Shown: positions 15,237-39,601, counted from the first letter of the stretch. The stretch: 64,000 nt of DNA from Kiritimatiellia bacterium (GCA_017463935.1 JAFUEM010000028.1:751-64750); one strand, 5' to 3'. The notes: generated by a model from the letters alone, not told the origin. A program made the numbers and translations.

Positions 15237-16796
15237 ATGATATACTATTGGGCGTATGAAAAAGAAGACAAGCACATGGACAATCTCATCCTAACCGGCT
15301 GGGGCTGGAAGGAGTATGCCGTCTCGGCTGCCGTGACGCTGCGGGCGTTGAACGGGCAGGCGGATGTGATGGGCATGAGCAAGCGGAGGCTCCCGGAGTT
15401 CCTTGAGCTCGAAGGACGCGGCTGGAAGCACATCTACCTCATCGGCCTGTCGCTCGGCGGAGACGAGGAGCGACTTGCGGTGGCGTTGAAGTCCCTGCGC
15501 GGAACCAAGGTGACGTGGGTGAGCGCGCTCCCGATGAGCGATGAACAGGAACGTCTGATCGCGCCGCTCCTCGATGTCCGCAAGGTGGACGGCGAACTGT
15601 TCAACGGTTCTCTCGTGAAGGCGGTCGGCCATGTGTTTGATGTCGATGTTGCCGATGTCCTACCGTATGCAGTTGAGGGCGGCAAGGTTCCGAAGTCGGT
15701 GCCGCAGTACCATGAGCTGATCTGCGCCGCCATGTACGCCTATCGAAACTACCGCGACGAGGAGCCGTATGCGCAGGCGATTCGGTATCTTGCGAACGGC
15801 GTCCGAGAGGAAGCGTGGAGCGACAAGGCGCGAAAGCTTGTCGCACATTACCGGCGGTATGGCAATCGCGAGCTAATCGGGAACAGCCAGCAGATGAAGA
15901 ATCTGCGCGAACGCATCAACTTCGTGGCGGCGAATCCGGATGCCCGCGTCCTCATCCTTGGAGAAAGCGGAACGGGCAAGGAGACGGTCGCCTTGCAGAT
16001 TCACAACCGTTCTTCCCGCCGGACAGATCCGTTCTACGCATTTAATTGCGCGAGCGTCGCGCCGCAACTCCTGGAGAGCTGCTTCTTCGGACACGAGAAA
16101 GGATCGTTCACGGGCGCGGACAGGCAGAAGATCGGGCTTTTCGAGCTGGCGAACGGCGGTACGCTCTTTCTCGATGAGATCGGCGAACTGCCGCTGGAGG
16201 CGCAGGGTGTCCTCCTTCGCGTCCTGGAAGAGGGGCGTTTCATGCGTGTTGGCGGTACGGAGGAGATCGAGACGGACGTGCGGCTCATCACGGCGACGAA
16301 CAGAAACCTTCCCTCGCTCGTCCGCGAAGGAAAGTTCCGCGAAGACCTCTTCATGCGGCTCAACGTCGTGCCGCTCCGCATCCCGCCGCTCCGCGAGCGC
16401 CCGGAGGACATCGGCGCAATCGCCGATAACTGGTGGTTCAATCACTTCCGCAAGCACCTTTCAGGCGAGCAGAAGACGGCTCTTGCAGCATACTCCTATC
16501 CCGGCAATGTGCGCGAACTCCTGAATATCCTTGAACGCGCCATCGTGTTCAAGGAGGATGACTTCGCAAAGCTCATCGCCGAGCATCAGGAGTTGAGCGG
16601 CGATCTTTCTGTTGGAGGGGCGGACTTCGTGTCGGACAAGGGAAAAGAGGCGCAAGATGCTGCCGACGTACCCGATGACCTCGATGACGCTATCCGGCGG
16701 CACGTCCATCGCGTATTCGAGAAGTACGCCCGCAACGTCTCGAAAGCGGCCACCGCGCTCAACATCACCCGCACGACTCTCCGTAAGTGGCTGTGA
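15237..16796 (+). CDS. sigma-54-dependent transcriptional activator with ~230 aa non-receiver N-terminal domain
   Basis: AAA+ sigma-54 interaction domain (GESGTGKE Walker A, GAFTGA variant GSFTGA, FLDEIGEL Walker B), C-terminal Fis-type HTH; AGGTGG SD 9 nt before ATG 15237. Confidence 0.85.
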   Translation: MIYYWAYEKEDKHMDNLILTGWGWKEYAVSAAVTLRALNGQADVMGMSKRRLPEFLELEGRGWKHIYLIGLSLGGDEERLAVALKSLRGTKVTWVSALPMSDEQERLIAPLLDVRKVDGELFNGSLVKAVGHVFDVDVADVLPYAVEGGKVPKSVPQYHELICAAMYAYRNYRDEEPYAQAIRYLANGVREEAWSDKARKLVAHYRRYGNRELIGNSQQMKNLRERINFVAANPDARVLILGESGTGKETVALQIHNRSSRRTDPFYAFNCASVAPQLLESCFFGHEKGSFTGADRQKIGLFELANGGTLFLDEIGELPLEAQGVLLRVLEEGRFMRVGGTEEIETDVRLITATNRNLPSLVREGKFREDLFMRLNVVPLRIPPLRERPEDIGAIADNWWFNHFRKHLSGEQKTALAAYSYPGNVRELLNILERAIVFKEDDFAKLIAEHQELSGDLSVGGADFVSDKGKEAQDAADVPDDLDDAIRRHVHRVFEKYARNVSKAATALNITRTTLRKWL

Positions 16797-16843: not shown

Positions 16844-16871
16844 ACCCCGCTACGGCGGGGGTTTCTGCTTT
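16844..16871 (+). terminator. intrinsic terminator after the sigma-54 activator gene
   Basis: CCCCGC-tacg-GCGGGG hairpin followed by GTTTCTGCTTT. Confidence 0.55.
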
Positions 16872-16886
16872 GGCATGGATATTGCT
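16871..16886 (+). promoter_or_regulatory. sigma-54 (-24/-12) promoter TGGCATGGATATTGCT
   Basis: Matches TGGCAC-N5-TTGCW with GG and GC 10 nt apart; ~35 nt upstream of ATG 16921. Confidence 0.65.
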
Positions 16887-16920
16887 ATATGGTGGGCAAC
16901 CACATGAAAGGCAATATTCC

Positions 16921-17628
16921 ATGAATGAAAAGAAGATCGAAATCAAGGGACCGAATCTGCCTCTTGACCCAATTGTCGGAGAGACAGACCCAGTGTTTTC
17001 TGAAATCAAGGCGGTGCATGACGCCCTGCTTGCAGAGTTCAAGCGCCTTGACGAGATACGGTCGTCGCAAGTTGAGGGCGCGTCATGGAGTTTGGACAAG
17101 GACAAACGCATCTACTCTGTCGAAGAATACAACGAAATGCTTGCCGCCTACAGAGCCGCCCGCAAAGCGTATGTCGAACGGTACAGGGAGAAGCTTGAGA
17201 CCATTGACATGGTGCGTGAGAAAATCCGCAAACTGCAAGATGAAGAGGAACGCTTCGCCGCCGAGAACGGGTGCAATGAGATTGATGAACCGCCAGATCT
17301 GCCGGACTTCGAGGAGATACCAAACGAGCCCTGGGAGGACTGGTGCAAGCGGCAGAAAGAATATTGGGATCAATTGAGTGCCGCAATGGAGAAGACGCAT
17401 CAACAGATGCAAAAGCAATGCGAGCAGAACAAGTTTTTCGTTCGCCGTCTTGAGGAGATAGGCAAGTTCGGTGAACTTGAATACGAAATGGAATTCCGTC
17501 TTCGTCACACATACATCAACCCCAAGACTGGCGAACAGGAGTATCGTCCTGACGATGACGTTGGCGAGGGCTTGATCTGCGTCGGCTCACGCGACTACAA
17601 CCCAAAGCGAGAGGACTTTGATGATTGA
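16921..17628 (+). CDS. coiled-coil protein, first gene of sigma-54-driven operon
   Basis: 235 aa, highly charged, heptad-rich (EEYNEMLAAYRAARKAYVERYREKLETIDMVREKIRKLQDEEERF); GAAAGG SD. Confidence 0.6.
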   Translation: MNEKKIEIKGPNLPLDPIVGETDPVFSEIKAVHDALLAEFKRLDEIRSSQVEGASWSLDKDKRIYSVEEYNEMLAAYRAARKAYVERYREKLETIDMVREKIRKLQDEEERFAAENGCNEIDEPPDLPDFEEIPNEPWEDWCKRQKEYWDQLSAAMEKTHQQMQKQCEQNKFFVRRLEEIGKFGELEYEMEFRLRHTYINPKTGEQEYRPDDDVGEGLICVGSRDYNPKREDFDD

Positions 17629-19240
17629 TGCGGAGCGATTCTGCCGTCTTGCGGACGCGGCGGCTGACGGTCTCAAGGAGCGAGGCGAGATTGTTGCTGG
17701 TGCGCTCCTCGCCGTGCTGTCCGGCCAGTCCGTGTTCTTCTACGGGCCTCCGGGAACGGCGAAGAGCCTCATCGCACGTCGGCTTTCGGGCTGCTTCAAG
17801 TCATCGGTGTTCTTTGAGTGCCTGATGAACCGCTTTACAACGCCGGAGGAGATATTCGGACCAGTCAGCATCAGGGAACTGAAGACGGAAGATCGCTATG
17901 TCCGCAAGACGGACGGCTTTCTGCCTTCGGCCGACTTCGGCTTTCTCGACGAGATATGGAAGTCTTCGCCAGCCATTTTGAACACGCTTCTGACGATTCT
18001 CAACGAACGAAAGTTTCGCAACGGCGACAAGGTGGAGGATGTTCCGCTAAAGGCCATCGTCGCGGCATCGAACGAGATCCCCCAGCCGGGTCAGGGGCTT
18101 GAGGCGCTTTACGACCGCTTCATCATGCGTTTTGCCGTCCCGCCAGTCAGGACAAGACGCGCCTTTGAATCACTGCTCGGAAGCGGCAGCGTTGGGACAT
18201 CCGTGGACATCGCGGAGGAAGACAAGATTTCAAACGAGGAGTGGGCGGCGCTTGTTGCGGACATTGCCGGGGTCGGCGTGTCGAAGGAGGCGTTGAACGT
18301 CATCCACGCCGTTCGCGTAAAGATTCAGAAGCGGAATGCAGAGAAGCCGGAAAGCCAAATATACGTGTCCGACCGCCGCTGGATGAAAGCCGTCGGCGTT
18401 GCGAAAACTGCGGCGGCGATTTGCGGACGGAAAGCCGTCATGCCTGTTGACACATTGATTATCCCGGATTGTATCTGGTCGAAGGACGATGAACGAGACG
18501 AGGTGCAGAAGATGGTCGATGAGGCGGTTCGGGAGTTTGGAACGCCATCGGCAGAGCGGCTCGATGCGTGGGAAAAGGCATTCTCCGACTTCGAGTCAGC
18601 ATCGGTCAACCGTGCTTTCTGGGACAGGGATGTGTTCAACACGGTCATGGCAGGCAACGTGGAATGCGTCCGCATGACCTCTTCCACGGCATCGGGGCAT
18701 CGGGATGAGTTCTACATACCCGTTTCGCGGATAGGAGCGGGAGGCAGATTTCACCCGTTGTCGAAAGACGGATTGGAAAGAATGGACCTTGAATGTAGTT
18801 GTCATGGCGGAAACGACTTCGGAATCCGTACCGATCCATCCCGCACCCCTCGTTCTTTTTCTGCGCTCGGCATGATGTCCGCGCTGTCTGCATCGGCGAA
18901 ATGGAATCTTGAGAACAACATTGAAAACAACTCCCATCCGTTGATGTCAAGGTTCACACTTTCTCCAATTGCACACGCCGGAGACTGCAAAGACGTCCCG
19001 ACAGACGCACTTGGCGAGGACAGGAAAACTGCGGGGCTGTTCCTCTCCGACATCGTGGCAATCGCGTCTGACTTTGACGCAGATGCATCGTCCGAGGCGG
19101 AGAACTATCCGTTTGTGCCGAAGAAGCGTCTGGCGGCAATCGGCGACGCATATCGGTCGTGTCGACAGCGGGCGGCGAATGACAAGGTGAAATGCGAATA
19201 CCTGATACACCGCCTTGGAACGCACAAGGCGTGGACGTAG
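17621..19240 (+). CDS. MoxR-like AAA+ ATPase with ~220 aa C-terminal extension
   Basis: GPPGTAKS Walker A, FLDEIWKSS Walker B, sensor region consistent with AAA_5/MoxR; overlaps upstream stop (ATGATTGATG). Confidence 0.8.
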   Translation: MIDAERFCRLADAAADGLKERGEIVAGALLAVLSGQSVFFYGPPGTAKSLIARRLSGCFKSSVFFECLMNRFTTPEEIFGPVSIRELKTEDRYVRKTDGFLPSADFGFLDEIWKSSPAILNTLLTILNERKFRNGDKVEDVPLKAIVAASNEIPQPGQGLEALYDRFIMRFAVPPVRTRRAFESLLGSGSVGTSVDIAEEDKISNEEWAALVADIAGVGVSKEALNVIHAVRVKIQKRNAEKPESQIYVSDRRWMKAVGVAKTAAAICGRKAVMPVDTLIIPDCIWSKDDERDEVQKMVDEAVREFGTPSAERLDAWEKAFSDFESASVNRAFWDRDVFNTVMAGNVECVRMTSSTASGHRDEFYIPVSRIGAGGRFHPLSKDGLERMDLECSCHGGNDFGIRTDPSRTPRSFSALGMMSALSASAKWNLENNIENNSHPLMSRFTLSPIAHAGDCKDVPTDALGEDRKTAGLFLSDIVAIASDFDADASSEAENYPFVPKKRLAAIGDAYRSCRQRAANDKVKCEYLIHRLGTHKAWT

Positions 19241-19243
19241 CAC

Positions 19244-20653
19244 GTGGATGCTGGCGAATATATCATCGAACTTCGCGAGACGTTTCCCGACGTTTGGGAA
19301 CCGTCTATAGAGCAACAGTTTTCCGCCGATGTCAAAGCGGCGGTTTCGGCGTGCGCAAAATCCGATCCGTTTGCGGCGGCATTCGCCGTGTTGGAAGCGG
19401 CGGAGCGCGAGTTCGCGGAGAAAGGCGCGGACGATGGACGGTGCTGCCGCGACCGGGAATCGTTTGCAAAGGCGTGTCCTGGCGAGGACGCCGACTTCTG
19501 GCTAGAAGAGCTTTCGGAAAGCGATGACGATGAACGTATCGCTGCCATACACGGCGGGATGCTGCGCCATTGGCGGGCATCGCTTGAGCGCGCCCATGCG
19601 CTGTGGCGAGAGCAGATGGCCTCGGAGCGGATTGCCCGGCTCTATGCCGAATACGTGGAGCGGCTCAAATGCATCAGGAAGCTGCTGTCGGGACTTGCGA
19701 TATTTGGCAAATCGGGCTTAGGCTGGGGGCTTGAGGCTGGCGAACTCGTCAAGCACGATGCGGCAACTCTCCTCTCGTGGCTGCGCAAGATCGAGGGCAA
19801 CCAGGAGCTGAAGCGCCTTTGCGATCTACTCGGACGCCTCATGGCGGCGGAGAAGCGCAAGGAGCGCGAGGAGATTGTCACGACCGTCGAGTATGAAGTG
19901 CCGAAGATCGACACTTCCGTCAAGGAGGAGATTGCCGGGATAACCCTTGGACGCAGCATCGAGGATGTCGTGCCGTCGGAACTGGCCGCCTGCGGCGATC
20001 CAGACCTTGAGACGCTCTTTGACCTGAAGTTCATCGAGGGGCGTCTTATGTGTTTCGATAAATCTGGCGTCCTGTTCGAGAAGCGCACAAAGGACGAGGC
20101 GCAGACGGTTGAACGCGAGACGGCGGATGGGCGCGGCCCGATGATCCTCTGCATTGACACGAGCGGGTCAATGTCCGGCGACCCGGAAGTTGTCGCCAAG
20201 GCCGTGTCGCTCGCCCTCGTCATGCGGGCGCGGCAGGAGAAGCGGAAATGCTATCTCATCAAGTTCAGCACCGGAATCGACGCGCAGAACGTCGGCGATG
20301 GCGCATCGCTCGATGCCATTATCGGCTTTTTGTCGAGTTCCTTTAACAGCGGCACGGACGCAGACCGGGCGCTGAAGGCCGGAATCAAGATGATGGAACA
20401 GAACGACTACCGCAAGGCCGATCTGCTGGTGGTGTCGGATTTCTGCTTTGGCTGGCAACGCAAGAAAATCAGCAAGCGCATTAGAGAGCAAAAGAAATCT
20501 GGCAGCCGCTTCTACGCGGTTATCGTTGATAATGTGGGGTGCGGATGCCATGACAAGCCGCCGTCTGGTTTTGACGGCGTGTGGCGTTTCCGTCCCGGCA
20601 ACTGCTCGCTGACCGCCTTGAAGGAACCAGCGAGGGTGGTAGGCAATGGTTAG
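19244..20653 (+). CDS. von Willebrand factor A domain protein (vWA partner of MoxR ATPase)
   Basis: C-terminal vWA with MIDAS DTSGSMSG; ~280 aa N-terminal unknown region; GTG start 4 nt after MoxR stop. Confidence 0.8.
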   Translation: MDAGEYIIELRETFPDVWEPSIEQQFSADVKAAVSACAKSDPFAAAFAVLEAAEREFAEKGADDGRCCRDRESFAKACPGEDADFWLEELSESDDDERIAAIHGGMLRHWRASLERAHALWREQMASERIARLYAEYVERLKCIRKLLSGLAIFGKSGLGWGLEAGELVKHDAATLLSWLRKIEGNQELKRLCDLLGRLMAAEKRKEREEIVTTVEYEVPKIDTSVKEEIAGITLGRSIEDVVPSELAACGDPDLETLFDLKFIEGRLMCFDKSGVLFEKRTKDEAQTVERETADGRGPMILCIDTSGSMSGDPEVVAKAVSLALVMRARQEKRKCYLIKFSTGIDAQNVGDGASLDAIIGFLSSSFNSGTDADRALKAGIKMMEQNDYRKADLLVVSDFCFGWQRKKISKRIREQKKSGSRFYAVIVDNVGCGCHDKPPSGFDGVWRFRPGNCSLTALKEPARVVGNG

Positions 20654-20738: not shown

Positions 20739-20754
20739 TGGCATGGATGTTGCT
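20739..20754 (+). promoter_or_regulatory. second sigma-54 promoter TGGCATGGATGTTGCT
   Basis: Near-identical to 16871..16886; ~35 nt upstream of ATG 20789 with the same GAAAGG SD spacing. Confidence 0.65.
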
Positions 20755-20788: not shown

Positions 20789-21283
20789 ATGAGTACGAAC
20801 ATCAACGCAAAAGAACTGAACTCACGTCTGTGGACGGAGTGGAAGAACGGCATGAAGATCATGGCGGAATCGCTGTTGAAGGATTCCGTCGATATATCCG
20901 GCTCGGGATGCACGATTGTTCTGGGAAACGAAAACTTCATACAACGGGCGGTGATGTATCTTCAGCGCAAGTCCTACATTGGCAAGTTCAAGGATTACAA
21001 GTCGAGAATTTCCGCCTACGAGAAGTCCGTCATAGAACTTGTAGATGAGGTCAACAAGATGATCGCAAGTCCGGCGTCGCAGCCGTGGTACAAGTTCGGC
21101 ACGCCCGCACCGGCAAAAATCGAATACCGCAGTACACTTGACGAGATCATCATCGACGGGGACGACCGTCTGGAGAATACTGAATGGGGCGACCATGCCA
21201 TCGCCGCGTTCGAGAAACTGGGAGACTACTTGAACAACATCATGAACGTCCTCGAATCGGCGCAGAAGGAGATCGGCAAATGA
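20789..21283 (+). CDS. hypothetical protein (164 aa)
   Basis: First ORF after second sigma-54 promoter; no recognisable motif. Confidence 0.55.
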   Translation: MSTNINAKELNSRLWTEWKNGMKIMAESLLKDSVDISGSGCTIVLGNENFIQRAVMYLQRKSYIGKFKDYKSRISAYEKSVIELVDEVNKMIASPASQPWYKFGTPAPAKIEYRSTLDEIIIDGDDRLENTEWGDHAIAAFEKLGDYLNNIMNVLESAQKEIGK

Positions 21284-21366
21284 AAGTCGCTACACGTTTA
21301 GACTAACTCGTGGAATCCGAAAAATGGTATAATATACGGCAAGAAACAAAGCACTCAAAGGCGTTT

Positions 21367-22878
21367 ATGAGATTCAAAGTCTTCATATCCAGTGTACAGC
21401 GTGAATTTGCCGCAGAGCGGCAGATGCTGGCAGAGTATGTCCGCAAGGATGCGCTTTTGGGTAAGTTCTTTGATGTGTTTCTGTTCGAGGAAGAACCCGC
21501 TTGCGATGTTGAGGCGCGTGATTTGTATCTGCCTGAGGTTGAGAAGTCCGACATTTATCTCGGTATTCTCGGAGCGCAATTCGGCAATGCAGATGCGGAA
21601 GGTGTCTCGCCAACAGAACGCGAGTACGATTTGGCGACAATCAAGGGCAAGGAACGCCTTGTCTTTGTGAAGAAATGCGAGCGTGATCCACGCGAGAAAC
21701 GATTCTTGCAGAAGGTGCAATCCGATGTCGTCCGCAAGTCGTTTGAGACGGCCGAAGAACTGCAGCTGGCCGTGTACGCGGCGCTTGTTCGCGTGTTGGA
21801 GAACAAGGGCTATATTCGTGTCGCGCCGTTTGATCTGGCTGTCGATACGGATCTTACGTTAGCCGATGTGGATGACGCGAAAGTTCGTGACTACCTCGCA
21901 CGGGCGAGGGAGGCGAAGAAGATTTCTGTTCCGAAAGATGCAGATGCGGCATGGCTGTTGACGAAGCTTGGCATGATAGTTCCTGACGGACGGCTTACCA
22001 ATGCGGGAGTCCTTTTCTTTGCAAAGCATCCTCAGCAGGCGATTGATATCTCGGTTGTCAAATGTCTTCAGTATTGGGGAACGCATGTTGAGCGTCCAAT
22101 TCCGTCCTATCAGACATACGAGGATGGAATCATCGGCATGATTGAGTCGGCCTTGGCCTTTGTCATGGGGCGCATTGACCGAACCATCGGCATCCCAGAT
22201 GAGCGCGGACTTGCCGCAGCGCAGGACGAACTGCCGCGCATGGCCGTGCGCGAGGCGATTGTCAACGCGGTCTGCCACCGCGATTATGAATCTAACGGGG
22301 CTGTTCAGGTGATGCTCTTCCGTGATCGCCTTGAGATTATGAATCCGGGCACGCTTCCGCGAGGATGGACGGCTGGGACATTGCTGACAACGCATGAGTC
22401 GGTTGCCCGCAACAAGGTGATTGCCAAGGCTCTTGATTGGGCCGGATATGTCGAGCGTTCCGGACATGGCACCGAGTTTATCATCGAAAGATGCGAAGCC
22501 CAAGGACTTGCAACGCCGCAATACAAGCCAGATTCTGCCATTTTCCACACAATCATCTGGCGGAAAACGACGGAATCGGCTGTGTCCCAAGAAGCCTCTT
22601 GTCAAGTGGCCCAGTCAAATGGCCCAGTCGCGGCCCAGTCGTGGCCCAGTCGCGTATTTGATGCAATTTCCGCAGTGGGCGAGGCGTCTACGTCAGATCT
22701 GGCAGCGGCATTGTCCTTGGATAATTCAAGTGGAAGCCTGAAACGTGCTCTGCGGATCTTGCTCGCTGACGGCATTATCGAATACACCATTCCCGAAAAA
22801 CCACGCAGCCGCTTGCAGAAATACCGCCTAACCGAAAAAGGCCGTCAAATGCTAGTGCAGAAAGGAAAGCACAAATGA
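21367..22878 (+). CDS. DUF4062 / AlbA_2 (Schlafen-like) / HATPase_c_4 / wHTH multidomain protein
   Basis: N-terminus FKVFISSVQREFAAERQMLAEYV...DIYLGILGAQFG (DUF4062-like); middle LTNAGVLFFAKHP (AlbA_2-like); REAIVNAVCHRDY...FRDRLEIMNPG (HATPase_c_4 signature); AAAGG SD before ATG 21367. Confidence 0.65.
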   Translation: MRFKVFISSVQREFAAERQMLAEYVRKDALLGKFFDVFLFEEEPACDVEARDLYLPEVEKSDIYLGILGAQFGNADAEGVSPTEREYDLATIKGKERLVFVKKCERDPREKRFLQKVQSDVVRKSFETAEELQLAVYAALVRVLENKGYIRVAPFDLAVDTDLTLADVDDAKVRDYLARAREAKKISVPKDADAAWLLTKLGMIVPDGRLTNAGVLFFAKHPQQAIDISVVKCLQYWGTHVERPIPSYQTYEDGIIGMIESALAFVMGRIDRTIGIPDERGLAAAQDELPRMAVREAIVNAVCHRDYESNGAVQVMLFRDRLEIMNPGTLPRGWTAGTLLTTHESVARNKVIAKALDWAGYVERSGHGTEFIIERCEAQGLATPQYKPDSAIFHTIIWRKTTESAVSQEASCQVAQSNGPVAAQSWPSRVFDAISAVGEASTSDLAAALSLDNSSGSLKRALRILLADGIIEYTIPEKPRSRLQKYRLTEKGRQMLVQKGKHK

Positions 22879-23423
22879 CCGAGAAAGGCAAACTGGCGTT
22901 GCGCAAGCCGCTCGTGCCGGCAAAGCAAAAGCAGAGAAGCGTCAAGAAAAACAATCGCAAGGATTGCAAAAGCAAGCTGTCTCGGACTGTCATATACGGC
23001 ATAACCGATCCCGGCAAGGATGGGCCGGCTATCATGCGGACTATAGCCGACGAGTTGCCGCGCATCCATGATGCCACCGGCGGCAGGATAGACAAGGTCG
23101 TAATTGATTGCCATTATTCCACTCAGGCATCTCTCTCCTCGCCGTTTGAAGTGGATTACGAAAAGACAACAAGTCTGCAAACTGATTTGAAGATAGGCGA
23201 ATTCACAATCCGCACCAACTATCGTAACAGTAAATATGCCGATGAAAATTCTCGCGACATCAAGGCGATATTTGAGGAGTTGAGGCGGCTCCACCATCAA
23301 CTTGGCGACCAGATAAGCGAGATAGATGATGACCCTGAAGACGCCAGCAGCGCATTGGAGGACATCCACGCCGAAATGGAAACGCAATTGGATGCTCTTG
23401 AAGAGGCGCTTGAAGAAGAGTAA
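22875..23423 (+). CDS. hypothetical protein with basic N-terminus and acidic C-terminus
   Basis: Translationally coupled (ATGA overlap) to the preceding gene; 182 aa. Confidence 0.5.
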   Translation: MTEKGKLALRKPLVPAKQKQRSVKKNNRKDCKSKLSRTVIYGITDPGKDGPAIMRTIADELPRIHDATGGRIDKVVIDCHYSTQASLSSPFEVDYEKTTSLQTDLKIGEFTIRTNYRNSKYADENSRDIKAIFEELRRLHHQLGDQISEIDDDPEDASSALEDIHAEMETQLDALEEALEEE

Positions 23424-23538
23424 GCGATGAAACGAAGTTCTCCAAGGCAGGCTCGAAAAAGCGTACCGCAACGGACATATTCCATTGTTGGTGTCTTTAC
23501 TATTAGATTACTCAAGGACATTTATTGGGAATAGTTTC

Positions 23539-24618
23539 ATGGCCTTGACAATTGGTTCATTCAATCTTTGCAATTTCAGTTCAAACGAGGACCGCAAGTT
23601 CCCCAAGGACTATAGTGCGATTGCGAATGCAATTTTAATGTCAGGCGCAGATGTAATTGCGCTTCAAGAGGTTATAGATCAGCAAGCGATAAATAGTTTA
23701 CTGAATCAACTTCGCGGACTTGGAGGCGCGAATCGAGACTGGCGGGGCTTCTTTGATAAGAAGGCGACGTGGCGCAACAATCGTGAGGGATATGCATTTG
23801 TGTGGGACGAAAAATGCGTGACTTTTGCAAAGGACGATGATGGTAATGAGGTGTTGCCCGAATTAGTAACAAAGTTTACCTCAATAAAGCGTCCACCGAT
23901 GGTTGCAAGGTTTGTTACTACGGGATCGGGTGAATTGCACTATGAACTCTGTGTAATAAACACACATATCGTTTTCAAACCAGATGGTTATCAGGCGCGA
24001 CACCCGGAGTGGTATGGAGGTGCTGCGATAAGAGCATTCGAATATTCGAAGATCGTTAACAGTGTTTATCCGCGTTTCAGCAATAAGCACTGTACATACA
24101 CGATTATTGCTGGCGACTATAACTTGAAAAGTTCTATGCTTGCTGTAGTTAATGCTCGTCCTAAGCTATCTAAAGGGCAGCCTACTATGATGTCCGTGCA
24201 AAGCGATAAGACAACAATCAAAACAACAGATTCAATGATTGATGATACATGTGAATCTCAGGGAAGTAAGCCAGATGACATAGGTCTCTTCGCTGCAATT
24301 TATAATGGCGTTATGCGGCTATTCAAGAATGGCGAGTCGATAGGTCGGCCTCCGTCTCAGTTGGCGGATAAACAAGCGCAAACAGAGAATGCAGAAACGC
24401 AGCAACCAACTGCGGATGGCACATATGTTAGTGATTATGATCACTTCAGTTTTGAAGTTGGTCGGGTTGGCGACTATGTGAGAAATGCACATCGCGTTAA
24501 CGCCCCTGAGCTTCTTTATCCAACGCCGAGTCGTATGTTTCATTCCTATAAAGAAGGAGTATCGGATCATGTGCCGATAGCGGCAACACTTGATTTGTCT
24601 GCATCACAGTCATTGTAA
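23539..24618 (+). CDS. endonuclease/exonuclease/phosphatase (EEP, DNase I-like) family protein
   Basis: IALQEV, IIAGDYN and SDHVPI motifs characteristic of the EEP fold; low-GC gene. Confidence 0.7.
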   Translation: MALTIGSFNLCNFSSNEDRKFPKDYSAIANAILMSGADVIALQEVIDQQAINSLLNQLRGLGGANRDWRGFFDKKATWRNNREGYAFVWDEKCVTFAKDDDGNEVLPELVTKFTSIKRPPMVARFVTTGSGELHYELCVINTHIVFKPDGYQARHPEWYGGAAIRAFEYSKIVNSVYPRFSNKHCTYTIIAGDYNLKSSMLAVVNARPKLSKGQPTMMSVQSDKTTIKTTDSMIDDTCESQGSKPDDIGLFAAIYNGVMRLFKNGESIGRPPSQLADKQAQTENAETQQPTADGTYVSDYDHFSFEVGRVGDYVRNAHRVNAPELLYPTPSRMFHSYKEGVSDHVPIAATLDLSASQSL

Positions 24619-24628
24619 GGAGAATAAC

Positions 24629-27469
24629 ATGAACAACATCATTTCCCAGCTATTTTCAAGGAGCGACAGGTCTCGTTCCATAACCAAAATCGACGCATCG
24701 CTCAAGCGAAGCGATGCTAACAAACTCCGAGCGGCAACTGCGCTTAACATGTGCATGGCGTCCGTGTCCGAGATTATCGCCAAGAACAACCTTGTTGCGA
24801 TGGAACATGAATATAATACGATTCTCAATAATCTCAATATGGAGTCTATCATCAAGGATGAGGCTTTGCTTAAGGTTATGAGGAAGTTACTTGACACGAT
24901 TTCGTTCTTCCGCTTGAATGACATGGAGCGCAAGCGCCTTGAAGAGCGTCATGAGCGGAAGATGAGCGGATCCGTTCTGGATAAACTTCTCTCCGGGGGC
25001 ACATCACTCATCGTATGTGTCGGCAATCCAATCGCTCTAGCAACGACTGCTGCTGTAGTTGGAGCAAGTATGTATGCAAACAAGAGGAAGGAGGATGCGA
25101 AAGAGCGGGAGAAGTTTGAGGATAAAATGTGGGAGTTGGAACGTTCGGCAATAGAGCAGCTTCATGCGCTACGTGTCGAGCTATTTGAATGTGCCTGGCG
25201 ACTTTCGGATGCCTACGAATTCAAAGATGAATGGCGGCTTACGGAAAAACAGATTGATTGGTACAATGAGGCAAAGAGCGAATACGATCCATTTCTTCGC
25301 TTTGCAAAACTCAATCAGCGTCGCGAGGATTTTTCGATTTACCCGCAGTATTGGTACGAGCTAGGTTCTGCCGCGCTTGAAATCACACAGTTGCCTGTAA
25401 AGGATGTCGATTGTGAAGATGAAATCAAGAAGGCAAGACATGAAGAGATAATCAAATCCTATCTTGATGAAGCGAAATCATGTTTTGGCAAGTATATCGA
25501 CTGTGACCCGCATCTTCTTCGTCAGGACTTTTTCTCTGCGGATGCGCGTATAAAGTATATTAGCATTGTTAAAGAAGAAACCGGTGGGTGGGCTTCCGCA
25601 CTGTTGGCGGAGGGTGATAAGTTGATGAGCGTTCGCCGTCTTGCATTGGATAATTCCGAATTGTTGCTTAAAGTGGCGATGATCTATGCTGCAGCGTTTA
25701 TTGAGTTAAAAGCAAAGGCCGAGAAAGCTCCTGTCGATGGAAGTGCAGCACTCTCCGATACCGAGAGCGACGTTGTCGCCGACTGGTATAAACAGGCGGT
25801 GGCATGTCTTGAAGTTCTTGTAATGCGCGAGTCAATGCTGCCAGTTAGTTCTGTACTCCTGAGCGCTTTACAGAAGATTAATGATGATAAGGTTGCGTAT
25901 GAGCATATCTGTCGCATAAAAGACAGTGCTCGCAATAATAAGATTATTCTCGTTGACTATGATTCTGAACATAATATCGCAGAGACAGTAAAGAAGACGA
26001 TTGAGGAATATGGTAAGAAATCAGTTGCGTCTATTAAGACGCTTTTCGCTCGGTCTTACGGAATGATTCTTCAGCTTGCAGAACCTGCATTTAATGTGTC
26101 GGAGGATGAGCAACGCAAGGTGCTTCAGAAGTGGGCTTCGGACACCAAGGATTTTCATGTGGGAATGTTGCAGTTGTGGGAGTTGCTTAAAGGCGAATTT
26201 AATACCTTCTTCATCTTTGTCGGAAGAGAGTACGAGAAATGTCCGGCTGCTGACAAACAACTTGAGGAGATAGCTAAAAAGCTTAATGATACTTTCACTA
26301 AGGAAATGGATGTCGATAAGCCTGGGAGACCTGATGAAAAGGCGTCTGCCGTTGTGCGTGTTACGGATCATATCCGCAGAGAGTTTATATCCAAAATGAA
26401 TGATTTTGTCGAGACTTTTAACGGTGATGGTGATGATAAAGTTCCAGCCGAGGAGTTTCGAGGATCGTTGTCGTTCTACATTGATTCTGTGTGTTCTCGT
26501 AAAAGTATCATTAACATAAATAAGGATAGTCGGTCTTATGACGCTTGTCGTCTTGACTATTTTAGAGGAATCGAACCGCAGAGTCTCGAAGAAGACGAAA
26601 CAGACCAGTGGGAGCCATCGCTCTTTGGTGCGGATAGGGAATATACACAAGACGGTTTGGTTTTTGAGTTTACAAAGATTGATCACGCAGAATACATCGA
26701 ACGTCTCATTGATAAGAGATTGTCATATAGAGTTACGTTTAAAGAAGCTTCGTCTCCGTCTGAGTTGCGCAGACTCGTTGAGGAGTGTATGAATCTTCTT
26801 ATATTCAAATATCAAGGCTACAATGCCAGCGTTCGAGATTTGCGGTCTAAAAGGGATTGCGGCGGATTTTGGAAGAAAACAGGCAATTTCTTCGCGAAGT
26901 GTGGCAAAAAGATATACAATATTACAAATAACCGGGATTATATCATTGAGATTTATGATGATCGGATTGATGTGGCATATCAGCGAGTGAACGATAATGA
27001 GTCTGTTATGCCGATTGCGCTTCTTTCGCATCAAGCGCTCGAGCGCGAAGTGAAACGACTGCTTAATTCTTCGATAGGGAAAGGGTCTCCTGAGTATAAT
27101 CGCCTTTGTGAGGCATTCGTTCGAACGATTGACGAAGAATTCACGGAGATGGTCTCTGAATTTGAGACCATTAAGGCCAAGCTTAACGATAAGCAAGTCG
27201 CGAAGCAAAGAGCAAAGATTATGAAGCGTTTTGTGAAAGCCATTGGTGCGTTCTGTAAGAAGGCTAATGGCAGACACCTTTGGGCCGCTAAAGAGCTGAT
27301 GTGTAATCTCCTCGGTGATGTTCATTCGGGGCAACTCAAGCTTGATATCGTGTCTCGGAACGTTATCGATGATAGTAGTCTTACCGCAGCGCAATTAGAA
27401 TTTAAGGACAGATCCGAGATTGGAGAATCTTGTACGAATCCAGTGCCTAAAGATACAGAGACCCTGTGA
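24629..27469 (+). CDS. large (946 aa) hypothetical protein, one predicted hydrophobic segment near residue 130, low-GC composition
   Basis: AAGGAG SD 7 nt before ATG 24629; uninterrupted 2.8 kb ORF in the AT-rich island; no recognisable domain. Confidence 0.7.
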   Translation: MNNIISQLFSRSDRSRSITKIDASLKRSDANKLRAATALNMCMASVSEIIAKNNLVAMEHEYNTILNNLNMESIIKDEALLKVMRKLLDTISFFRLNDMERKRLEERHERKMSGSVLDKLLSGGTSLIVCVGNPIALATTAAVVGASMYANKRKEDAKEREKFEDKMWELERSAIEQLHALRVELFECAWRLSDAYEFKDEWRLTEKQIDWYNEAKSEYDPFLRFAKLNQRREDFSIYPQYWYELGSAALEITQLPVKDVDCEDEIKKARHEEIIKSYLDEAKSCFGKYIDCDPHLLRQDFFSADARIKYISIVKEETGGWASALLAEGDKLMSVRRLALDNSELLLKVAMIYAAAFIELKAKAEKAPVDGSAALSDTESDVVADWYKQAVACLEVLVMRESMLPVSSVLLSALQKINDDKVAYEHICRIKDSARNNKIILVDYDSEHNIAETVKKTIEEYGKKSVASIKTLFARSYGMILQLAEPAFNVSEDEQRKVLQKWASDTKDFHVGMLQLWELLKGEFNTFFIFVGREYEKCPAADKQLEEIAKKLNDTFTKEMDVDKPGRPDEKASAVVRVTDHIRREFISKMNDFVETFNGDGDDKVPAEEFRGSLSFYIDSVCSRKSIININKDSRSYDACRLDYFRGIEPQSLEEDETDQWEPSLFGADREYTQDGLVFEFTKIDHAEYIERLIDKRLSYRVTFKEASSPSELRRLVEECMNLLIFKYQGYNASVRDLRSKRDCGGFWKKTGNFFAKCGKKIYNITNNRDYIIEIYDDRIDVAYQRVNDNESVMPIALLSHQALEREVKRLLNSSIGKGSPEYNRLCEAFVRTIDEEFTEMVSEFETIKAKLNDKQVAKQRAKIMKRFVKAIGAFCKKANGRHLWAAKELMCNLLGDVHSGQLKLDIVSRNVIDDSSLTAAQLEFKDRSEIGESCTNPVPKDTETL

Positions 27470-27593
27470 TGAACTGTGTTGATGAGTTTTCCGACTTTAT
27501 GAGAAGAGACATCTATTTCATAATGCCGTACCGCTCTTCGTAATCGCAGTTGGGCTGTTTGTCATCGGCCTTAATGTTTAATTAACTATTGAA

Positions 27594-28200
27594 ATGAGAA
27601 CTTCCACCGATGACATCAAGAAGCGGCTCGGGCAGCGCGAGGATATGTTCTTGCGGCGGCTGTTCGGGATGCTTGCGAAGATGGCAAAGGCGGACGGCAA
27701 GGTCGATGCGTGGGGAACCCATGCCGCCGAGGGCGCGTTTGCTCGCTTCCCGCGAGCGGCGGCGCGGCGCAAGTTCTGTGTCCGTGTGTTCAACGAGTCG
27801 AAGAAGAGCCGCATTTCGCTTTACAGACAGGCGTGGGAGTTCTCCAACAAGTATGCGTCGGCGGCGGATTGCCTCGCCGTGTATGAACTTCTCTGAGATA
27901 TTGATTGCGCCACGGGGCTTCTGAAAACTGTTCACAAGGATAACCTGAAAGGCATCTGCAAGTACCTGAATCTTCCGGAAGCCTACTTCAACATCTACTT
28001 CCGCAAGCGTTCCGGGACATTCCGCGAATGGACGTACAGCAACCAGAAGGCGCAAGAAGAAACACATCGCTCAAAACGCAAAGAGACGCATGAGCGGACA
28101 AGGCGCGAGCCGCCGCCCCGTCCAAAGACGGCATTGCAGAAAGCCTACGAGCTGATCGGATGCGCCAGCACCGCCGACGATGATGCAGTCCGCCGTGCGG
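27594..28200 (+). pseudogene. DjlA-like (TerB domain + J-domain) co-chaperone remnant with in-frame TGA and truncated J domain
   Basis: 27594..27896 TerB-like; in-frame TGA at 27897; same frame continues ...PPPRPKTALQKAYELIGCASTADDDAVRRA then loses the J-domain HPD region. Confidence 0.45.
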
Positions 28201-36286: not shown

Positions 36287-37210
36287 TCAATTTGACTTGG
36301 GTGACATGGAATCGGAGAATTCAAAATGTCTAGTCTTTATCCCCTTTGAATCAGTATATTCATGTAAGCCAAGGTAGAGTTCGCCAATAATGTCGCCTGT
36401 GTGTATGGATGTAATCACAATGCAATTGTGATTGGGTTCAAAGTGGTAGCGCAACCCATTGAACGCGTCGCAACCATGCCTAAAATGGCAACAACATTCA
36501 ATCGTTCCTCCTCGGAAGCGGAGGAACCAGTTCTCCATCAATGCGTCGCTAGCCCCACATCCATCATTTCCAGCGACATCTGAACTTGCGAACAGGAAGA
36601 CACACCCCTCATGTACCCAAATCTGGCTCTTGCGGAGTTTCAGTTCCATCTGACATGCATATTCGCTATTTGTAAAGAAAGCTATGCCGTTCGTAAAACA
36701 TATTTCCTGCTTTTCAAAGTGCCCTATGCCAGACGAGACCGACTTCCAGGCATACATTACTTGCTTCAATTCGTCGCGGGAGTATTTCAGATCCGTCACG
36801 CAGACATCATAATCCTTCATCAATTTTCGCTCGTAATCGTTCTGCGCCGTCGAATAGAACCAATTCGTCACGATGGATTTCCATCGGCTCTGAAAGTCTC
36901 TCTCGGCGTTACAAAGCATAGCGTATGAGATGCGACCTCCGCCCATCATCTTGTGCGAGGAGTCAAAATCCGCTTTCTCAACTTGATATGCCGCATACAG
37001 AGCATTCCGCTCAATCTCAATCGTATAATCAGTCTTCGCTGTCCTTGCAAACTCATTCGTCACCGAATTTACGGCACATAATTTCTCGTCAATCATGTGT
37101 ACCGCATTTTCCATGCGTGAAAGCATGACAGCAAGTCGTCTATTGTGAATTAGGCTTATTCCCAAGGCACACGCAATCGTAGCGAATATGATGCTGTTTG
37201 CCTTTTTCAT
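36287..37210 (-). CDS. hypothetical signal-anchored protein (307 aa), low-GC island
   Basis: N-terminal hydrophobic segment MKKANSIIFATIACALGISLI; Cys-rich C-terminal region. Confidence 0.5.
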   Translation of the reverse strand: MKKANSIIFATIACALGISLIHNRRLAVMLSRMENAVHMIDEKLCAVNSVTNEFARTAKTDYTIEIERNALYAAYQVEKADFDSSHKMMGGGRISYAMLCNAERDFQSRWKSIVTNWFYSTAQNDYERKLMKDYDVCVTDLKYSRDELKQVMYAWKSVSSGIGHFEKQEICFTNGIAFFTNSEYACQMELKLRKSQIWVHEGCVFLFASSDVAGNDGCGASDALMENWFLRFRGGTIECCCHFRHGCDAFNGLRYHFEPNHNCIVITSIHTGDIIGELYLGLHEYTDSKGIKTRHFEFSDSMSPKSN

Positions 37211-37285
37211 GTTTGTTTCAATCTTCTATAACTCATTTGGTGTCTCAGTCAGAAGTCCCAATGCCCTTTGCGAATCATGACCATG

Positions 37286-37975: not shown

Positions 37976-37994
37976 CTAGAAATCTCCTTTGGAG

Positions 37995-38369
37995 TTATTT
38001 GCAGTCGGGGTATGACAGTAAAATGTGCAACTTCATTTGCTGGTCTATGATACTTGTCGGCGATGGCATCGGCGCAATCGCGATCAAAGCCGCCCCTATA
38101 ATGACGAACGGAAGTGCCAGCAAAAATGCCACAGGACGCAATAGCCAATACGAACGCGCAACGGCTCCGCATCCCATTATTACACCAAGGCACACCAACC
38201 AAGACAGCGAAAACAGAAGTAGCACGAGCATTAGCGGCACTATTAGAATCTGACATGGAATATAGATTATGCGCAGCAACATACCAACAGGAGACAGTAT
38301 GAATTTGATTGCCGCCGTAATCAGTCCAAATACAACCGTATCATATCCTTTGTGCATGGTGAATTTCAA
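37995..38369 (-). CDS. hypothetical polytopic membrane protein
   Basis: 124 aa, three or four hydrophobic helices. Confidence 0.45.
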   Translation of the reverse strand: MKFTMHKGYDTVVFGLITAAIKFILSPVGMLLRIIYIPCQILIVPLMLVLLLFSLSWLVCLGVIMGCGAVARSYWLLRPVAFLLALPFVIIGAALIAIAPMPSPTSIIDQQMKLHILLSYPDCK

Positions 38370-38372
38370 ACT

Positions 38373-38600: not shown

Positions 38601-38608
38601 CTGCCCCC

Positions 38609-38806: not shown

Positions 38807-38807
38807 G

Positions 38808-39557: not shown

Positions 39558-39601
39558 GTCGGGATCTCCATTATGGTTACTTGATAGAGTTGTTCACTTA
39601 G

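What the first reader, a model, noticed from the sequence alone, without database searches (positions are those of the whole stretch)
23400..27590. Low-GC island carrying the EEP nuclease and a 946 aa orphan protein
From roughly 23.4 to 27.6 kb the sequence becomes visibly AT-rich, with codons such as AAA, AAT, GAT and TTT abundant, against a roughly 60-65% GC background. The two genes here are the EEP nuclease and the giant ORF. This points to recent horizontal acquisition of the effector part of the sigma-54-driven locus. The 946 aa protein has a single hydrophobic segment (GGTSLIVCVGNPIALATTAAVVGASMYA) and no recognisable motif.
Basis: seen in the sequence. Interest (0 to 1): 0.55.

Follow-up and report, generated by a model that had tools for sequence, protein, structure and literature searches.

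The report
Mobile DNase-plus-partner gene pair, σ54-controlled
The AT-rich block is real and holds a widespread but uncharacterised two-gene cassette, an intracellular DNase I-like nuclease coupled to a large membrane-hairpin/helical-repeat protein, that moves between gut and rumen bacteria and is here plugged into a σ54-switched, probably anti-phage, variable island.

Summary
Window 23476-27470 has GC 0.442 against 0.591±0.023 (z = -6.4). GC3 is 0.40/0.47 against about 0.77 in host genes.

The 946 aa protein is not an orphan: its family has at least 1,238 clusters (50% identity) across Bacillota, Spirochaetota, Bacteroidota, Lentisphaerota, Actinomycetota and Kiritimatiellae. In 76 of 79 reference genomes it lies next to the same EEP subfamily, and the link is reciprocal.

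The EEP keeps the full DNase I catalytic set, has a DNase I fold and has no signal peptide. The partner has a conserved N-terminal domain with a G-N-P-centred hydrophobic hairpin, a TPR-like middle and a β-rich C-terminal domain. It has no model in Pfam, NCBIfam or PADLOC and no fold match.

A WYL regulator precedes the pair in 24 of 83 loci. Here the host is a Kiritimatiellae MAG, and the pair is the last cargo of an operon behind one of two near-consensus σ54 promoters. Relatives carry other cargo behind the same activator, including a swapped pair variant, BnzB-like genes and AbiH.

Low GC is a persistent property of the cassette, not proof of recent arrival: a 93%-identical copy occupies the same site in a relative.

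The most likely function is a transcriptionally gated DNase defence or abortive-infection module. This is inferred, not shown.

The parts
15237..16796 (+). σ54-dependent activator (bEBP, 519 aa). It has a lineage-specific N-terminal sensor domain (about aa 1-205), an AAA+ σ54-interaction domain and a C-terminal HTH.
   Evidence: Pfam Sigma54_activat 3e-66. PADLOC RtcR_PspF2 3e-99 over the AAA+/HTH part only. The sensor domain has 43 homologs, all from this lineage, and shows no CARF signal by profile against the PDB.
16845..16860 (+). Terminator-like GC hairpin that closes the activator gene, just upstream of P1.
   Evidence: conserved in L001 and L013.
16871..16886 (+). σ54 promoter P1 (TGGCATGGATATTGCT), 32 nt upstream of the p236 start codon.
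   Evidence: One of only two 1-mismatch matches to TGGCAC-N5-TTGCW in 64 kb. It is orthologous to the single promoter and leader of L001.
16918..17628 (+). p236, unknown protein and first gene of the P1 module.
   Evidence: No hit in Pfam, PADLOC, NCBIfam or PHROGs. Absent from the other fetched loci.
17618..19240 (+). MoxR/RavA-like AAA+ ATPase.
   Evidence: Pfam bpMoxR 7e-49 and AAA_lid_8. NCBIfam RavA 3e-93, below its cutoff.
19244..20653 (+). VWA/ViaA-like partner of the MoxR ATPase.
   Evidence: Pfam VWA_CoxE and VWA_2. NCBIfam ViaA 2.5e-63, below its cutoff.
20739..20754 (+). σ54 promoter P2 (TGGCATGGATGTTGCT), 35 nt upstream of p164. It is the likely promoter of the operon that ends with the EEP and large genes.
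   Evidence: The identical 16-mer recurs in front of cargo modules in L001, L013, L092, L093 and L095-L097, against 0.5 hits per Mb in unrelated loci.
20789..21283 (+). p164, a small unknown protein conserved as the first gene behind the promoter in relatives.
   Evidence: 94% identical in L001 and 74% in L013. No family hit.
21310..22878 (+). DUF4062 + HATPase_c_4 (Schlafen/AlbA-associated) + winged-helix protein, 522 aa.
   Evidence: Pfam DUF4062 2e-18, HATPase_c_4 1e-18 and Fic-like_C 1e-10. PADLOC similarity to the pAgo-associated Schlafen region. L001 retains only a deletion remnant.
22875..23423 (+). p182, an unknown coiled-coil-like protein. It is the last conserved gene before the variable cargo.
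   Evidence: 87% aa and 92% nt identity to L013, running up to window position about 23475, where similarity stops.
23476..27470 (+). Low-GC cassette (GC 0.442) holding the two-gene module.
   Evidence: The left junction comes from the L013 comparison and the right junction from L001 and L012. There are no flanking repeats or tRNAs.
23539..24618 (+). Intracellular DNase I-like EEP nuclease (359 aa) with no signal peptide.
   Evidence: Pfam PF03372 at 30.8 bits against a cutoff of 24.5. Invariant N, E, H, D-x-N, D-H and S-D-H residues across 108 homologs. The family profile hits DNase γ at 7e-12 and DNase I at 1e-10. The AF2 model has pLDDT 86, and its top Foldseek hits are DNase I and DNase1L3 at TM about 0.73.
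24629..27469 (+). 946 aa partner protein (MBQ8124714.1). It has a conserved N-terminal helical domain with a hydrophobic hairpin, a TPR-like middle, a β-rich domain and a clade-specific helical tail. The RBS overlaps the EEP stop codon, leaving a 10-nt gap.
   Evidence: There is no Pfam, NCBIfam, PADLOC or PHROGs model and no significant fold match in the PDB or BFVD.
24710..25588 (+). Family-wide conserved N-terminal domain of the large protein (aa 28-320).
   Evidence: BLAST coverage 110-119 of 119 homologs. Invariant E176, F186, W190, R203, Q208 and R298, among others.
25001..25087 (+). Hydrophobic G/A/S-rich hairpin (aa about 125-153) with a central G-N-P, followed by a basic cluster (NKRK). 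Probably a membrane-inserted or membrane-associating hairpin.
   Evidence: Conserved in position and character in 104 of 104 members. Median best KD-19 hydropathy is 1.43, and 1.88 in the window protein. pLDDT is low in the model.
27552..27571 (+). Weak terminator-like hairpin after the large gene.

Best explanation
The island is a self-contained, horizontally mobile two-gene cassette. Gene 1 encodes a cytoplasmic, catalytically intact DNase I-type EEP nuclease. Gene 2 is translationally coupled to it and encodes a large protein with four parts: a conserved N-terminal domain carrying a membrane-type hydrophobic hairpin, a TPR-like helical-repeat region, a β-rich domain, and a rapidly diverging remainder.

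I propose that the pair is a conflict (anti-phage or anti-mobile-element, possibly abortive-infection) module. In this model the nuclease is the DNA-degrading effector, and the large protein tethers, restrains and/or activates it in response to an infection cue. Because an intracellular DNase I is dangerous, the cassette is kept under tight transcriptional gating. In about 29% of family loci the gate is a WYL repressor-type regulator. In this Kiritimatiellae genome it is a σ54 promoter that fires only when a dedicated enhancer-binding protein with a lineage-specific sensor domain is activated.

The σ54 locus itself is a modular cargo platform. The same activator and the same promoter 16-mer front different cargo in different strains: MoxR-VWA, a Schlafen/AlbA-type protein, a BnzB-like + S1 pair, AbiH, LRAT, and several variants of the EEP pair.

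Shown: composition, family size, obligate synteny, catalytic-residue conservation, the DNase I fold, promoter motifs and cargo variability. Inferred: DNase activity in vivo, physical interaction of the two proteins, membrane association, the defence role, and transcription of the pair from P2.
For: Composition and codon bias.

Family size: 119 hits and 1,238 cluster representatives, 562 of them at E<1e-30.

Taxonomic spread: six or more phyla of gut and rumen anaerobes.

Synteny: the EEP gene is immediately upstream on the same strand in 72 of 79 reference loci and overlapping or adjacent in 4 more, with typical gaps of -4 to +35 nt. The link is reciprocal in 10 of 11 informative EEP-seeded metagenome loci.

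Nuclease identity: invariant catalytic residues, a DNase I/γ profile match at 7e-12, a Foldseek DNase I match at TM 0.73 and E 1.6e-12, and a consensus N-terminus that starts directly with β1, so there is no signal peptide.

Partner protein: conserved N-terminal domain and hairpin, a confident AF2 model at pLDDT 82, and a TPR-like middle.

Regulation: a WYL regulator upstream on the same strand in 24 of 83 loci, and two σ54 promoters in the window with modular recurrence in relatives.

Conflict-type company: an ICE-like element with ArdA, relaxase and resolvase; Cas3 next door; a MotA/ExbB cluster plus an nSTAND protein; BnzB-like at 1.3e-27 in the same σ54 operon in L013; AbiH and LRAT behind the same activator.

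Cargo swapping: the same activator, p164 and p182 precede a pair only about 31% identical in L013.

Precedent: RtcR/PspF-like σ54 activators were previously noted next to R-M systems (PMC4012209).
Against: There is no experimental evidence of any kind for this family. PADLOC has no model for either protein, and no paper in the searchable library describes the pair.

A random sample of 149 neighbouring genes from 66 loci is dominated by housekeeping and miscellaneous genes, with only a few defence-like or mobile-element hits. A classic 'defence-island' enrichment is therefore not demonstrated.

The family is essentially absent from sequenced plasmids and phages.

The large protein has many invariant polar residues (E61, N67, N68, N70, K76, D77, E78, E176, R203, Q208, R298), so it may itself be an enzyme or ligand binder rather than a passive sensor or tether.

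The hydrophobic segment is only moderately hydrophobic in most members (27 of 104 reach KD ≥ 1.6), so membrane insertion is not certain.

Transcription of the EEP and large genes from P2 is inferred from same-strand tight spacing only. There is a 115-nt gap before the EEP gene, and in other hosts the pair works without σ54.
Confidence: 0.55

Rival explanations
1. Toxin-antitoxin or addiction-type module. The DNase is a toxin and the large protein is its cognate neutraliser. The pair would persist because losing it kills the cell, stabilising ICEs and genomic islands rather than defending against phage.
For: The two genes are tightly, translationally coupled and obligately co-inherited. The nuclease is intracellular and potentially lethal. 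The pair occurs on an ICE-like element, and its distribution is patchy and mobile.
Against: A 750-950 aa multi-domain protein with a hydrophobic hairpin and a TPR-like region is atypical for an antitoxin. The gene order, with toxin first and a very large second gene, is unusual, as is the dedicated signal-responsive regulation (WYL, σ54 bEBP). The family is absent from 72,556 plasmids, where addiction modules abound. TA and abortive-infection defence are not mutually exclusive.
Confidence: 0.15
2. Nucleic-acid-damage response or DNA-processing module rather than immunity. WYL regulators of the PafBC/DriD type and RtcR-type activators respond to damaged DNA or RNA. The EEP enzyme could act as a TDP2- or AP-endonuclease-like repair phosphodiesterase, or as a programmed DNA-degradation enzyme, that the large protein recruits to a site.
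For: TDP2 structures are the second-best fold matches, at E about 1e-11. One homolog sits directly after recA. WYL association is seen. The activator's AAA+/HTH part is closest to the RtcR/PspF group.
Against: Sequence profiles favour DNase I/γ over repair EEPs: 7e-12, against no AP-endonuclease hit and a TDP2 sequence hit at E 0.77. The family keeps the second catalytic His (H144) that aligns with H134 of DNase I (its role as a DNase I/CdtB/SMase hallmark that TDP2 and ExoIII lack is from my own knowledge). Repair genes are normally vertically inherited with host-like composition, whereas this pair is patchy, AT-shifted in 63 of 66 hosts, and swapped between strains. Its σ54 island-mates are BnzB-like, AbiH and Schlafen-type genes.
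Confidence: 0.15
3. The EEP enzyme is a lipid or other phosphodiesterase (sphingomyelinase- or phospholipase C-like, or an inositol phosphatase) that acts on the membrane together with the hairpin-bearing partner.
For: The EEP superfamily includes SMases with the same two-His catalytic layout. The partner carries a conserved hydrophobic hairpin, and a DUF697 membrane protein follows the pair in 12 loci.
Against: No SMase or inositol phosphatase appears among the PDB profile hits or the top 50 Foldseek hits. The only NCBIfam hits are nucleases, MnuA and ExeM/NucH.
Confidence: 0.05
4. One reading: a recently imported orphan effector block that is specific to this genome.
For: Strong compositional contrast. 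Cargo behind the activator differs between strains.
Against: It is not an orphan. The same block is present at the same site, at 93% identity, in L001, whose flanks are 87-99% identical. Diverged copies in other hosts and contexts remain AT-rich, so low GC does not date the event.
Confidence: 0.1

Closest known systems
DNase I / DNase1L3 (eukaryotic) and bacterial DNase I-like nucleases (MnuA, ExeM/NucH, CdtB)
   Same: The EEP fold and the complete catalytic constellation are shared. The family profile matches DNase γ and DNase I at 7e-12 to 1e-10, and Foldseek gives TM about 0.73. There are weak NCBIfam hits to MnuA and ExeM/NucH.
   Different: Those enzymes are secreted or surface-bound, whereas this one has no signal peptide and is obligately paired with a large cytoplasmic or membrane partner. 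It has family-specific insertions (aa about 150-185 and a disordered 236-290 loop). It scores far below the MnuA cutoff, 50.7 against 185 bits.
WYL-regulated defence operons (BrxR-BREX, CapW-CBASS; concept in Makarova et al. 2014, PMC4012209)
   Same: A WYL/wHTH regulator sits directly upstream on the same strand in 24 of 83 family loci. This fits the logic of a dangerous effector kept off until a signal arrives.
   Different: There is no WYL gene in this window, where a σ54 activator takes the gating role. The regulated genes are unrelated to BREX or CBASS.
RtcR-rtcBA and PspF-pspA σ54 circuits, and the RtcR/PspF-like activators found next to R-M systems (PMC4012209)
   Same: An NtrC-type AAA+ plus HTH activator is encoded immediately upstream of its σ54 promoter(s). 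PADLOC model RtcR_PspF2 matches at 3e-99 over the AAA+/HTH part.
   Different: The N-terminal sensor is not detectably CARF. There are no rtcA/rtcB or psp genes. The score is below the NCBIfam RtcR and PspF cutoffs. The circuit controls interchangeable cargo modules, each with its own copy of the promoter.
Two-gene membrane-sensor + effector defence systems (Kiwa KwaAB, Bunzi BnzAB, Zorya)
   Same: A membrane-associated component is paired with a soluble effector, and the system moves as a compact operon. A BnzB-like gene shares the same σ54 operon with a pair variant in L013.
   Different: There is no sequence or profile similarity of either protein to any PADLOC model. The membrane element here is a short hairpin inside a large soluble-looking protein, not a multi-pass TM protein. 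The effector is a DNase I-type EEP, which none of the PADLOC v2.0.0 models matched.
MoxR-VWA (RavA-ViaA; MoxR-vWA ternary conflict systems, Pfam PF20030)
   Same: The neighbouring P1 module encodes a bpMoxR-type AAA+ ATPase and a VWA protein.
   Different: This module is not part of the low-GC cassette, is absent from the other fetched loci that share this activator, and has near-host codon usage. No β-propeller third component was detected.

Membership tests
EEP superfamily (Pfam PF03372 Exo_endo_phos) | Score above the Pfam gathering threshold | tested here: met
   30.8 bits against a cutoff of 24.5, E 3e-7.
DNase I-like branch of the EEP superfamily | Catalytic and metal-binding residues equivalent to DNase I E39, H134, D168/N170, D212 and D251-H252 | tested here: met
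   E45, H144, D194/N196, D302-H303 and S343-D344-H345 are invariant in 108 sequences. H144 aligns with the DNase I H134 position in the HMM alignment.
DNase I-like branch of the EEP superfamily | Closest sequence and fold relatives are DNase I-type enzymes | tested here: met
   Profile against the PDB: DNase γ 7e-12 and DNase I 1.7e-10. Foldseek: DNase I 1.6e-12, TM 0.73.
DNase I-like branch of the EEP superfamily | DNA endonuclease activity | not testable with these tools
   Needs a biochemical assay.
Secreted or membrane nucleases MnuA / ExeM-NucH (NCBIfam) | Score above the curated cutoff, plus a signal peptide or lipobox | tested here: not met
   MnuA scores 50.7 against 185 bits and ExeM/NucH 25.6 against 300. 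The consensus N-terminus starts directly with the β1 'IGSFN' motif.
Any catalogued anti-phage system (PADLOC-DB v2.0.0) | HMM match of the component proteins | tested here: not met
   There is no hit for the EEP or the large protein from the window, L005 or L013. Across 52 family members there are only scattered single hits.
Defence-island residency (guilt by association) | Neighbourhood enriched in known defence genes | tested here: inconclusive
   There are individual supportive loci. However, a random sample of 149 neighbours is mostly unrelated genes, and no background control was possible.
WYL-regulated operon | WYL-domain regulator adjacent to the operon | tested here: not met
   It is absent in the window. 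It is present in 24 of 83 family loci elsewhere.
σ54-dependent operon | -24 GG / -12 GC promoter (TGGCAC-N5-TTGCW) upstream, with a cognate bEBP nearby | tested here: met
   TGGCATGGATATTGCT at 16871 and TGGCATGGATGTTGCT at 20739 are the only 1-mismatch hits. The bEBP is at 15237-16796. Whether P2 transcription reaches the EEP and large genes was not tested.
RtcR family | Divergent CARF N-terminal domain, a score above the NCBIfam cutoff, and linked rtcBA genes | tested here: not met
   The PADLOC and NCBIfam alignments start at aa about 202-207. The score is 285.7 against 650 bits. The sensor profile gives only HEAT/alphaRep-like weak hits. There are no rtc genes in the locus.
TPR-repeat proteins | Recognisable TPR motifs or fold in the large protein | tested here: inconclusive
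   TPR_19 is weak (best E 1e-3) in 11 of 52 members and absent in the window protein. Foldseek TPR/IFIT hits have E of 0.06-1. IFIT3 scores 0.019 by profile.
   The window protein reaches KD-19 = 1.88, but the family median is 1.43. The segment is broken by a conserved G-N-P and flanked by charged residues on both sides, which fits a hairpin better. No dedicated TM predictor was available.
Bunzi (BnzA/BnzB) | BnzB plus a TerB-TM BnzA | tested here: not met
   No window protein matches. BnzB-like occurs only in relatives, such as L013 at 1.3e-27. One family member hit BnzA at 1.5e-9, possibly through a fused TerB domain (not checked).

The most novel reading that the evidence does not exclude
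The EEP + large-protein pair is a new, widespread anti-phage system of gut and rumen bacteria. Its membrane-hairpin/TPR protein would sense infection at the envelope and unleash an intracellular DNase I-type nuclease. The Kiritimatiellae locus would then represent a previously undescribed form of immune regulation: a σ54 'master switch', in which one sensor-bearing enhancer-binding protein drives a set of interchangeable defence cassettes, each carrying its own copy of the same σ54 promoter.
Probability: 0.3. Interest if true: 0.75.

Novelty: new variant of a known kind. Interest (0 to 1): 0.55.

Why it matters
If the inference holds, this adds a defence or abortive-infection system that current catalogues miss. 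It has at least 1,238 sequence clusters, concentrated in human-gut and rumen anaerobes, where defence systems are poorly sampled experimentally. Its effector would be an intracellular DNase I-type enzyme, a fold best known from secreted nucleases.

The large partner is a family with no Pfam, NCBIfam or PADLOC model and no structural relative, yet it has a confident predicted structure. That makes it a ready target for structural and biochemical work.

The Kiritimatiellae locus is also a natural experiment in regulation. The same σ54 activator and the same promoter cassette are placed in front of different cargo in different strains. This makes the old prediction that RtcR/PspF-like activators control immunity directly testable.

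Tried and rejected
1. 'Orphan protein' was rejected: there are 119 word-indexed homologs and 1,238 cluster representatives.

2. Desulfovibrio-like host was my first guess, from σ54, hybrid-cluster protein and GC. It was rejected: exact protein matches identify a Kiritimatiellae MAG.

3. A relationship of the large protein to Bunzi BnzA was not supported. Only 1 of 52 members hit BnzA. BnzA is a TerB+TM protein, and the L013 S1-domain neighbour does not match the family HMM.

4. Alternative effectors replacing the EEP in the three EEP-less loci: one locus has an integrase (probably a disruption) and one has an unrelated unknown protein. This gives no support for effector swapping within the pair.

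5. A CARF sensor in the activator was not detected.

6. A discrete mobile-element insertion (att repeats, tRNA, IS) around the island was not found.

7. Plasmid or phage carriage: none in 72,556 plasmids or 50,697 phages, and 1 hit in 2.9 M viral contigs.

9. Literature searches on EEP, DNase I-like, WYL and σ54 in phage defence found nothing specific.

10. A colicin/Bcl-2-like 'buried hydrophobic hairpin' pore-former idea for the N-terminal domain was considered. No fold hits support it, but it is not excluded.

Full report
OBSERVATION

The compositional anomaly is real. GC in 1-kb windows falls from about 0.58 to 0.42-0.47 between 23 and 27.5 kb, with a sharp right edge near 27.5 kb. For 23476-27470, GC is 0.442 against 0.591 ± 0.023 for all other 4-kb windows outside the two low-GC islands. 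That is z = -6.4, and it is the lowest 4-kb stretch in the window. GC3 is 0.40 for the EEP gene and 0.47 for the large gene, against 0.767 ± 0.075 for 17 host genes. A codon-usage log-score gives z = -4.7 and -3.9. AAA, AAT, GAT and TTT are 2.7-4.1 times enriched. The upstream genes of the same locus are host-like or intermediate (GC3 0.57-0.76).

The block holds exactly two genes. The first is an EEP gene at 23539-24618, 359 aa from the ATG that homologs use. The second is a 946 aa gene at 24629-27469, whose AAGGAG ribosome-binding site overlaps the EEP stop codon.

HOST AND LOCUS

Exact-sequence look-ups identify the contig as a Kiritimatiellae bacterium MAG. The 946 aa protein is MBQ8124714.1.

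The + strand from 15.2 to 27.5 kb reads as follows:
- σ54 activator (15237-16796), then a terminator-like hairpin
- σ54 promoter P1 (TGGCATGGATATTGCT, 16871)
- p236, a MoxR/RavA-like ATPase and a VWA/ViaA-like protein
- σ54 promoter P2 (TGGCATGGATGTTGCT, 20739)
- p164, a DUF4062-HATPase_c_4-wHTH protein, p182, the EEP gene and the 946 aa gene

P1 and P2 are the only 1-mismatch matches to TGGCAC-N5-TTGCW in the 64 kb.

THE LARGE PROTEIN IS NOT AN ORPHAN

A word-indexed search found 119 relatives. An exhaustive profile search found 1,238 cluster representatives at E ≤ 1e-3, of which 562 are at E ≤ 1e-30. None carries an annotation.

Conservation is strongest over aa 28-320, but profile alignment shows one architecture shared along the whole length:
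- an N-terminal helical domain with many invariant polar residues
- a TPR-like middle
- a β-rich domain with a conserved D…Y motif
- a clade-specific helical tail in the Kiritimatiellae proteins

It is a stretch of about 28 residues, rich in G, A and S, with a central G-N-P and a basic cluster after it. Median KD-19 hydropathy is 1.43. This fits a membrane-inserted or membrane-associating helical hairpin better than a classic single-pass TM helix.

AlphaFold2 gives a confident model (pLDDT 82) with no significant match in the PDB or BFVD. There is no model for the protein in Pfam, NCBIfam, PADLOC or PHROGs.

THE PAIR IS AN OBLIGATE TWO-GENE MODULE

In 79 loci from named reference genomes, the same EEP subfamily is scored immediately upstream on the same strand in 72, and is overlapping or adjacent in 4 more. 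These genomes include Lachnospiraceae, Oscillospiraceae, Treponema, Prevotella/Bacteroidales, Victivallales/Lentisphaerae, Eggerthellaceae and Veillonellales. Intergenic gaps are typically -4 to +35 nt.

Of the three exceptions, one has an integrase in that position.

When the search is seeded from the EEP side, 10 of 11 informative metagenome contigs also carry the large gene.

Apart from the pair, only two neighbours recur. A WYL/wHTH regulator lies upstream in 24 of 83 loci, and a DUF697 membrane protein lies mostly downstream in 12. Everything else varies.

THE EEP PROTEIN IS A DNase I-TYPE ENZYME

Across 108 homologs the catalytic set is invariant: N10, E45, H144, D194, N196, D302-H303 and S343-D344-H345. 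The family profile hits DNase γ at 7e-12 and DNase I at about 1e-10 among PDB sequences. The AF2 model (pLDDT 86) matches DNase I and DNase1L3 best, at TM about 0.73, followed by TDP2. NCBIfam gives only sub-threshold nuclease hits. There is no signal peptide, so the enzyme is intracellular.

MOBILITY AND 'RECENT ACQUISITION'

The pair has lower GC than its flanks in 63 of 66 loci across all host taxa, with a median difference of -0.06.

The closest relative locus (L001) has the same block, at the same site and with the same low GC. The block is 93.3% identical there, and its flanks are 87-99% identical. L001 lacks the MoxR-VWA module and carries a deletion that fuses the DUF4062 N-terminus to the p182 C-terminus.

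In L013 the activator (87%), p164 (74%) and p182 (92% nt, up to window position 23475) are conserved. What follows there is a BnzB-like gene (PADLOC 1.3e-27), an S1-domain gene and a pair variant only 31-34% identical.

Other members of the activator's 90% cluster carry further combinations, including AbiH, LRAT and another pair variant. That cluster has 377 members, against 5 for the large protein.

Homologs of the window's pair at 75% and 59% identity sit in contexts without σ54 and remain AT-rich. No repeats or tRNAs flank the island.

The cassette is therefore horizontally mobile and is exchanged at this locus. Its low GC is a persistent trait, however, and this particular copy predates the split from L001.

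REGULATION

σ54 motifs occur twice per Kiritimatiellae locus. They are always on the cargo strand and directly in front of modules, and the same 16-mer recurs. Unrelated loci show 0.5 hits per Mb.

The activator's AAA+/HTH part is closest to PADLOC's RtcR_PspF2 group (3e-99). Its N-terminal 205 aa are lineage-specific and not detectably CARF. Makarova et al. 2014 noted RtcR/PspF-like activators next to R-M systems (PMC4012209).

INTERPRETATION

The best-supported reading is a transcriptionally gated conflict module. In it, an intracellular DNase effector is coupled to a large hairpin/TPR partner that tethers, restrains or activates it.

Evidence for a defence role is circumstantial. It consists of mobility, AT bias, WYL or σ54 gating, and company with BnzB-like, AbiH, Schlafen-type, Cas3, ICE and nSTAND genes.

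A random sample of 149 neighbours does not show an obvious defence-island signature. PADLOC has no model, and no paper in the library describes the pair. The rivals (TA/addiction module, nucleic-acid-damage response, lipid phosphodiesterase) cannot be excluded without experiments.

VERDICT

The feature is a new variant of a known kind, a nuclease-effector two-gene module under signal-gated transcription. It is of moderate interest (0.55), and of higher interest if the σ54 'master-switch' cargo platform and the DNase I-type defence function are confirmed.

Noticed in passing
window 36287-41602 (minus strand): There is a second low-GC island (GC 0.41-0.50) with about seven ORFs, including an ankyrin-repeat protein at 37286-37975 (Pfam Ank_2 1e-30) and a weak Sel1-like protein. 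The others have no Pfam hit. The whole 28.2-41.7 kb block is missing between the DnaJ-like gene and 2-Hacid_dh in relative L001.
   Followed up: partly
window 27594-28198: The flanking TerB-DnaJ-like gene has an in-frame stop at 27894-27896, where the 84%-identical L012 homolog has Trp. It is either a pseudogene or a MAG consensus error.
   Followed up: partly
L013 3861-6978; L095 17361-20529; L092 5606-8763: A BnzB-like gene (PADLOC BnzB 1.3e-27) is followed by a gene of about 600 aa with a C-terminal S1 RNA-binding domain in L013. A similarly placed 414 aa + S1-domain pair occurs in L095, and a 480 aa + 572 aa low-GC pair in L092 (these were not scanned against PADLOC). This may be a Bunzi variant with an S1 partner instead of the TerB/TM BnzA.
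   Followed up: partly
window 16871-16886 and 20739-20754; L001 7847 and 13707; L013 862 and 10687; L092 4720; L095 15188: Essentially the same σ54 promoter 16-mer (TGGCATGGATGTTGCT) is reused in front of different cargo modules in different strains, as if each cassette travels with its own promoter copy. In the window, P1 plus its leader is the ancestral copy, and the MoxR-VWA block was inserted right at the start codon.
   Followed up: yes
homologs of window 15276-15875 (P0383-P0425): Almost all database homologs of the activator's sensor domain are fragments cut off at contig ends. This suggests that metagenome assemblies routinely break at this hypervariable locus.
   Followed up: no
L005 12236-12868, L065 6622-7296 and 10 other loci: A DUF697-domain protein of about 210-225 aa lies mostly directly after the large gene in 12 family loci. 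It may be an optional third component and is absent from the window.
   Followed up: partly
L007 / L068 (Bengtsoniella intestinalis CP133584) 4844-7718: Two IS elements (DDE_Tnp_1 and IS110-type) are inserted between the EEP gene and the large gene, next to a Cas3 gene. The pair is probably inactivated there.
   Followed up: no
window 21310-22878 vs L001 8468-8791: L001's 107 aa 'DUF4062' ORF is a deletion fusion of the DUF4062 N-terminus and the p182 C-terminus. The window therefore preserves the fuller, probably ancestral, arrangement of this part of the operon.
   Followed up: yes
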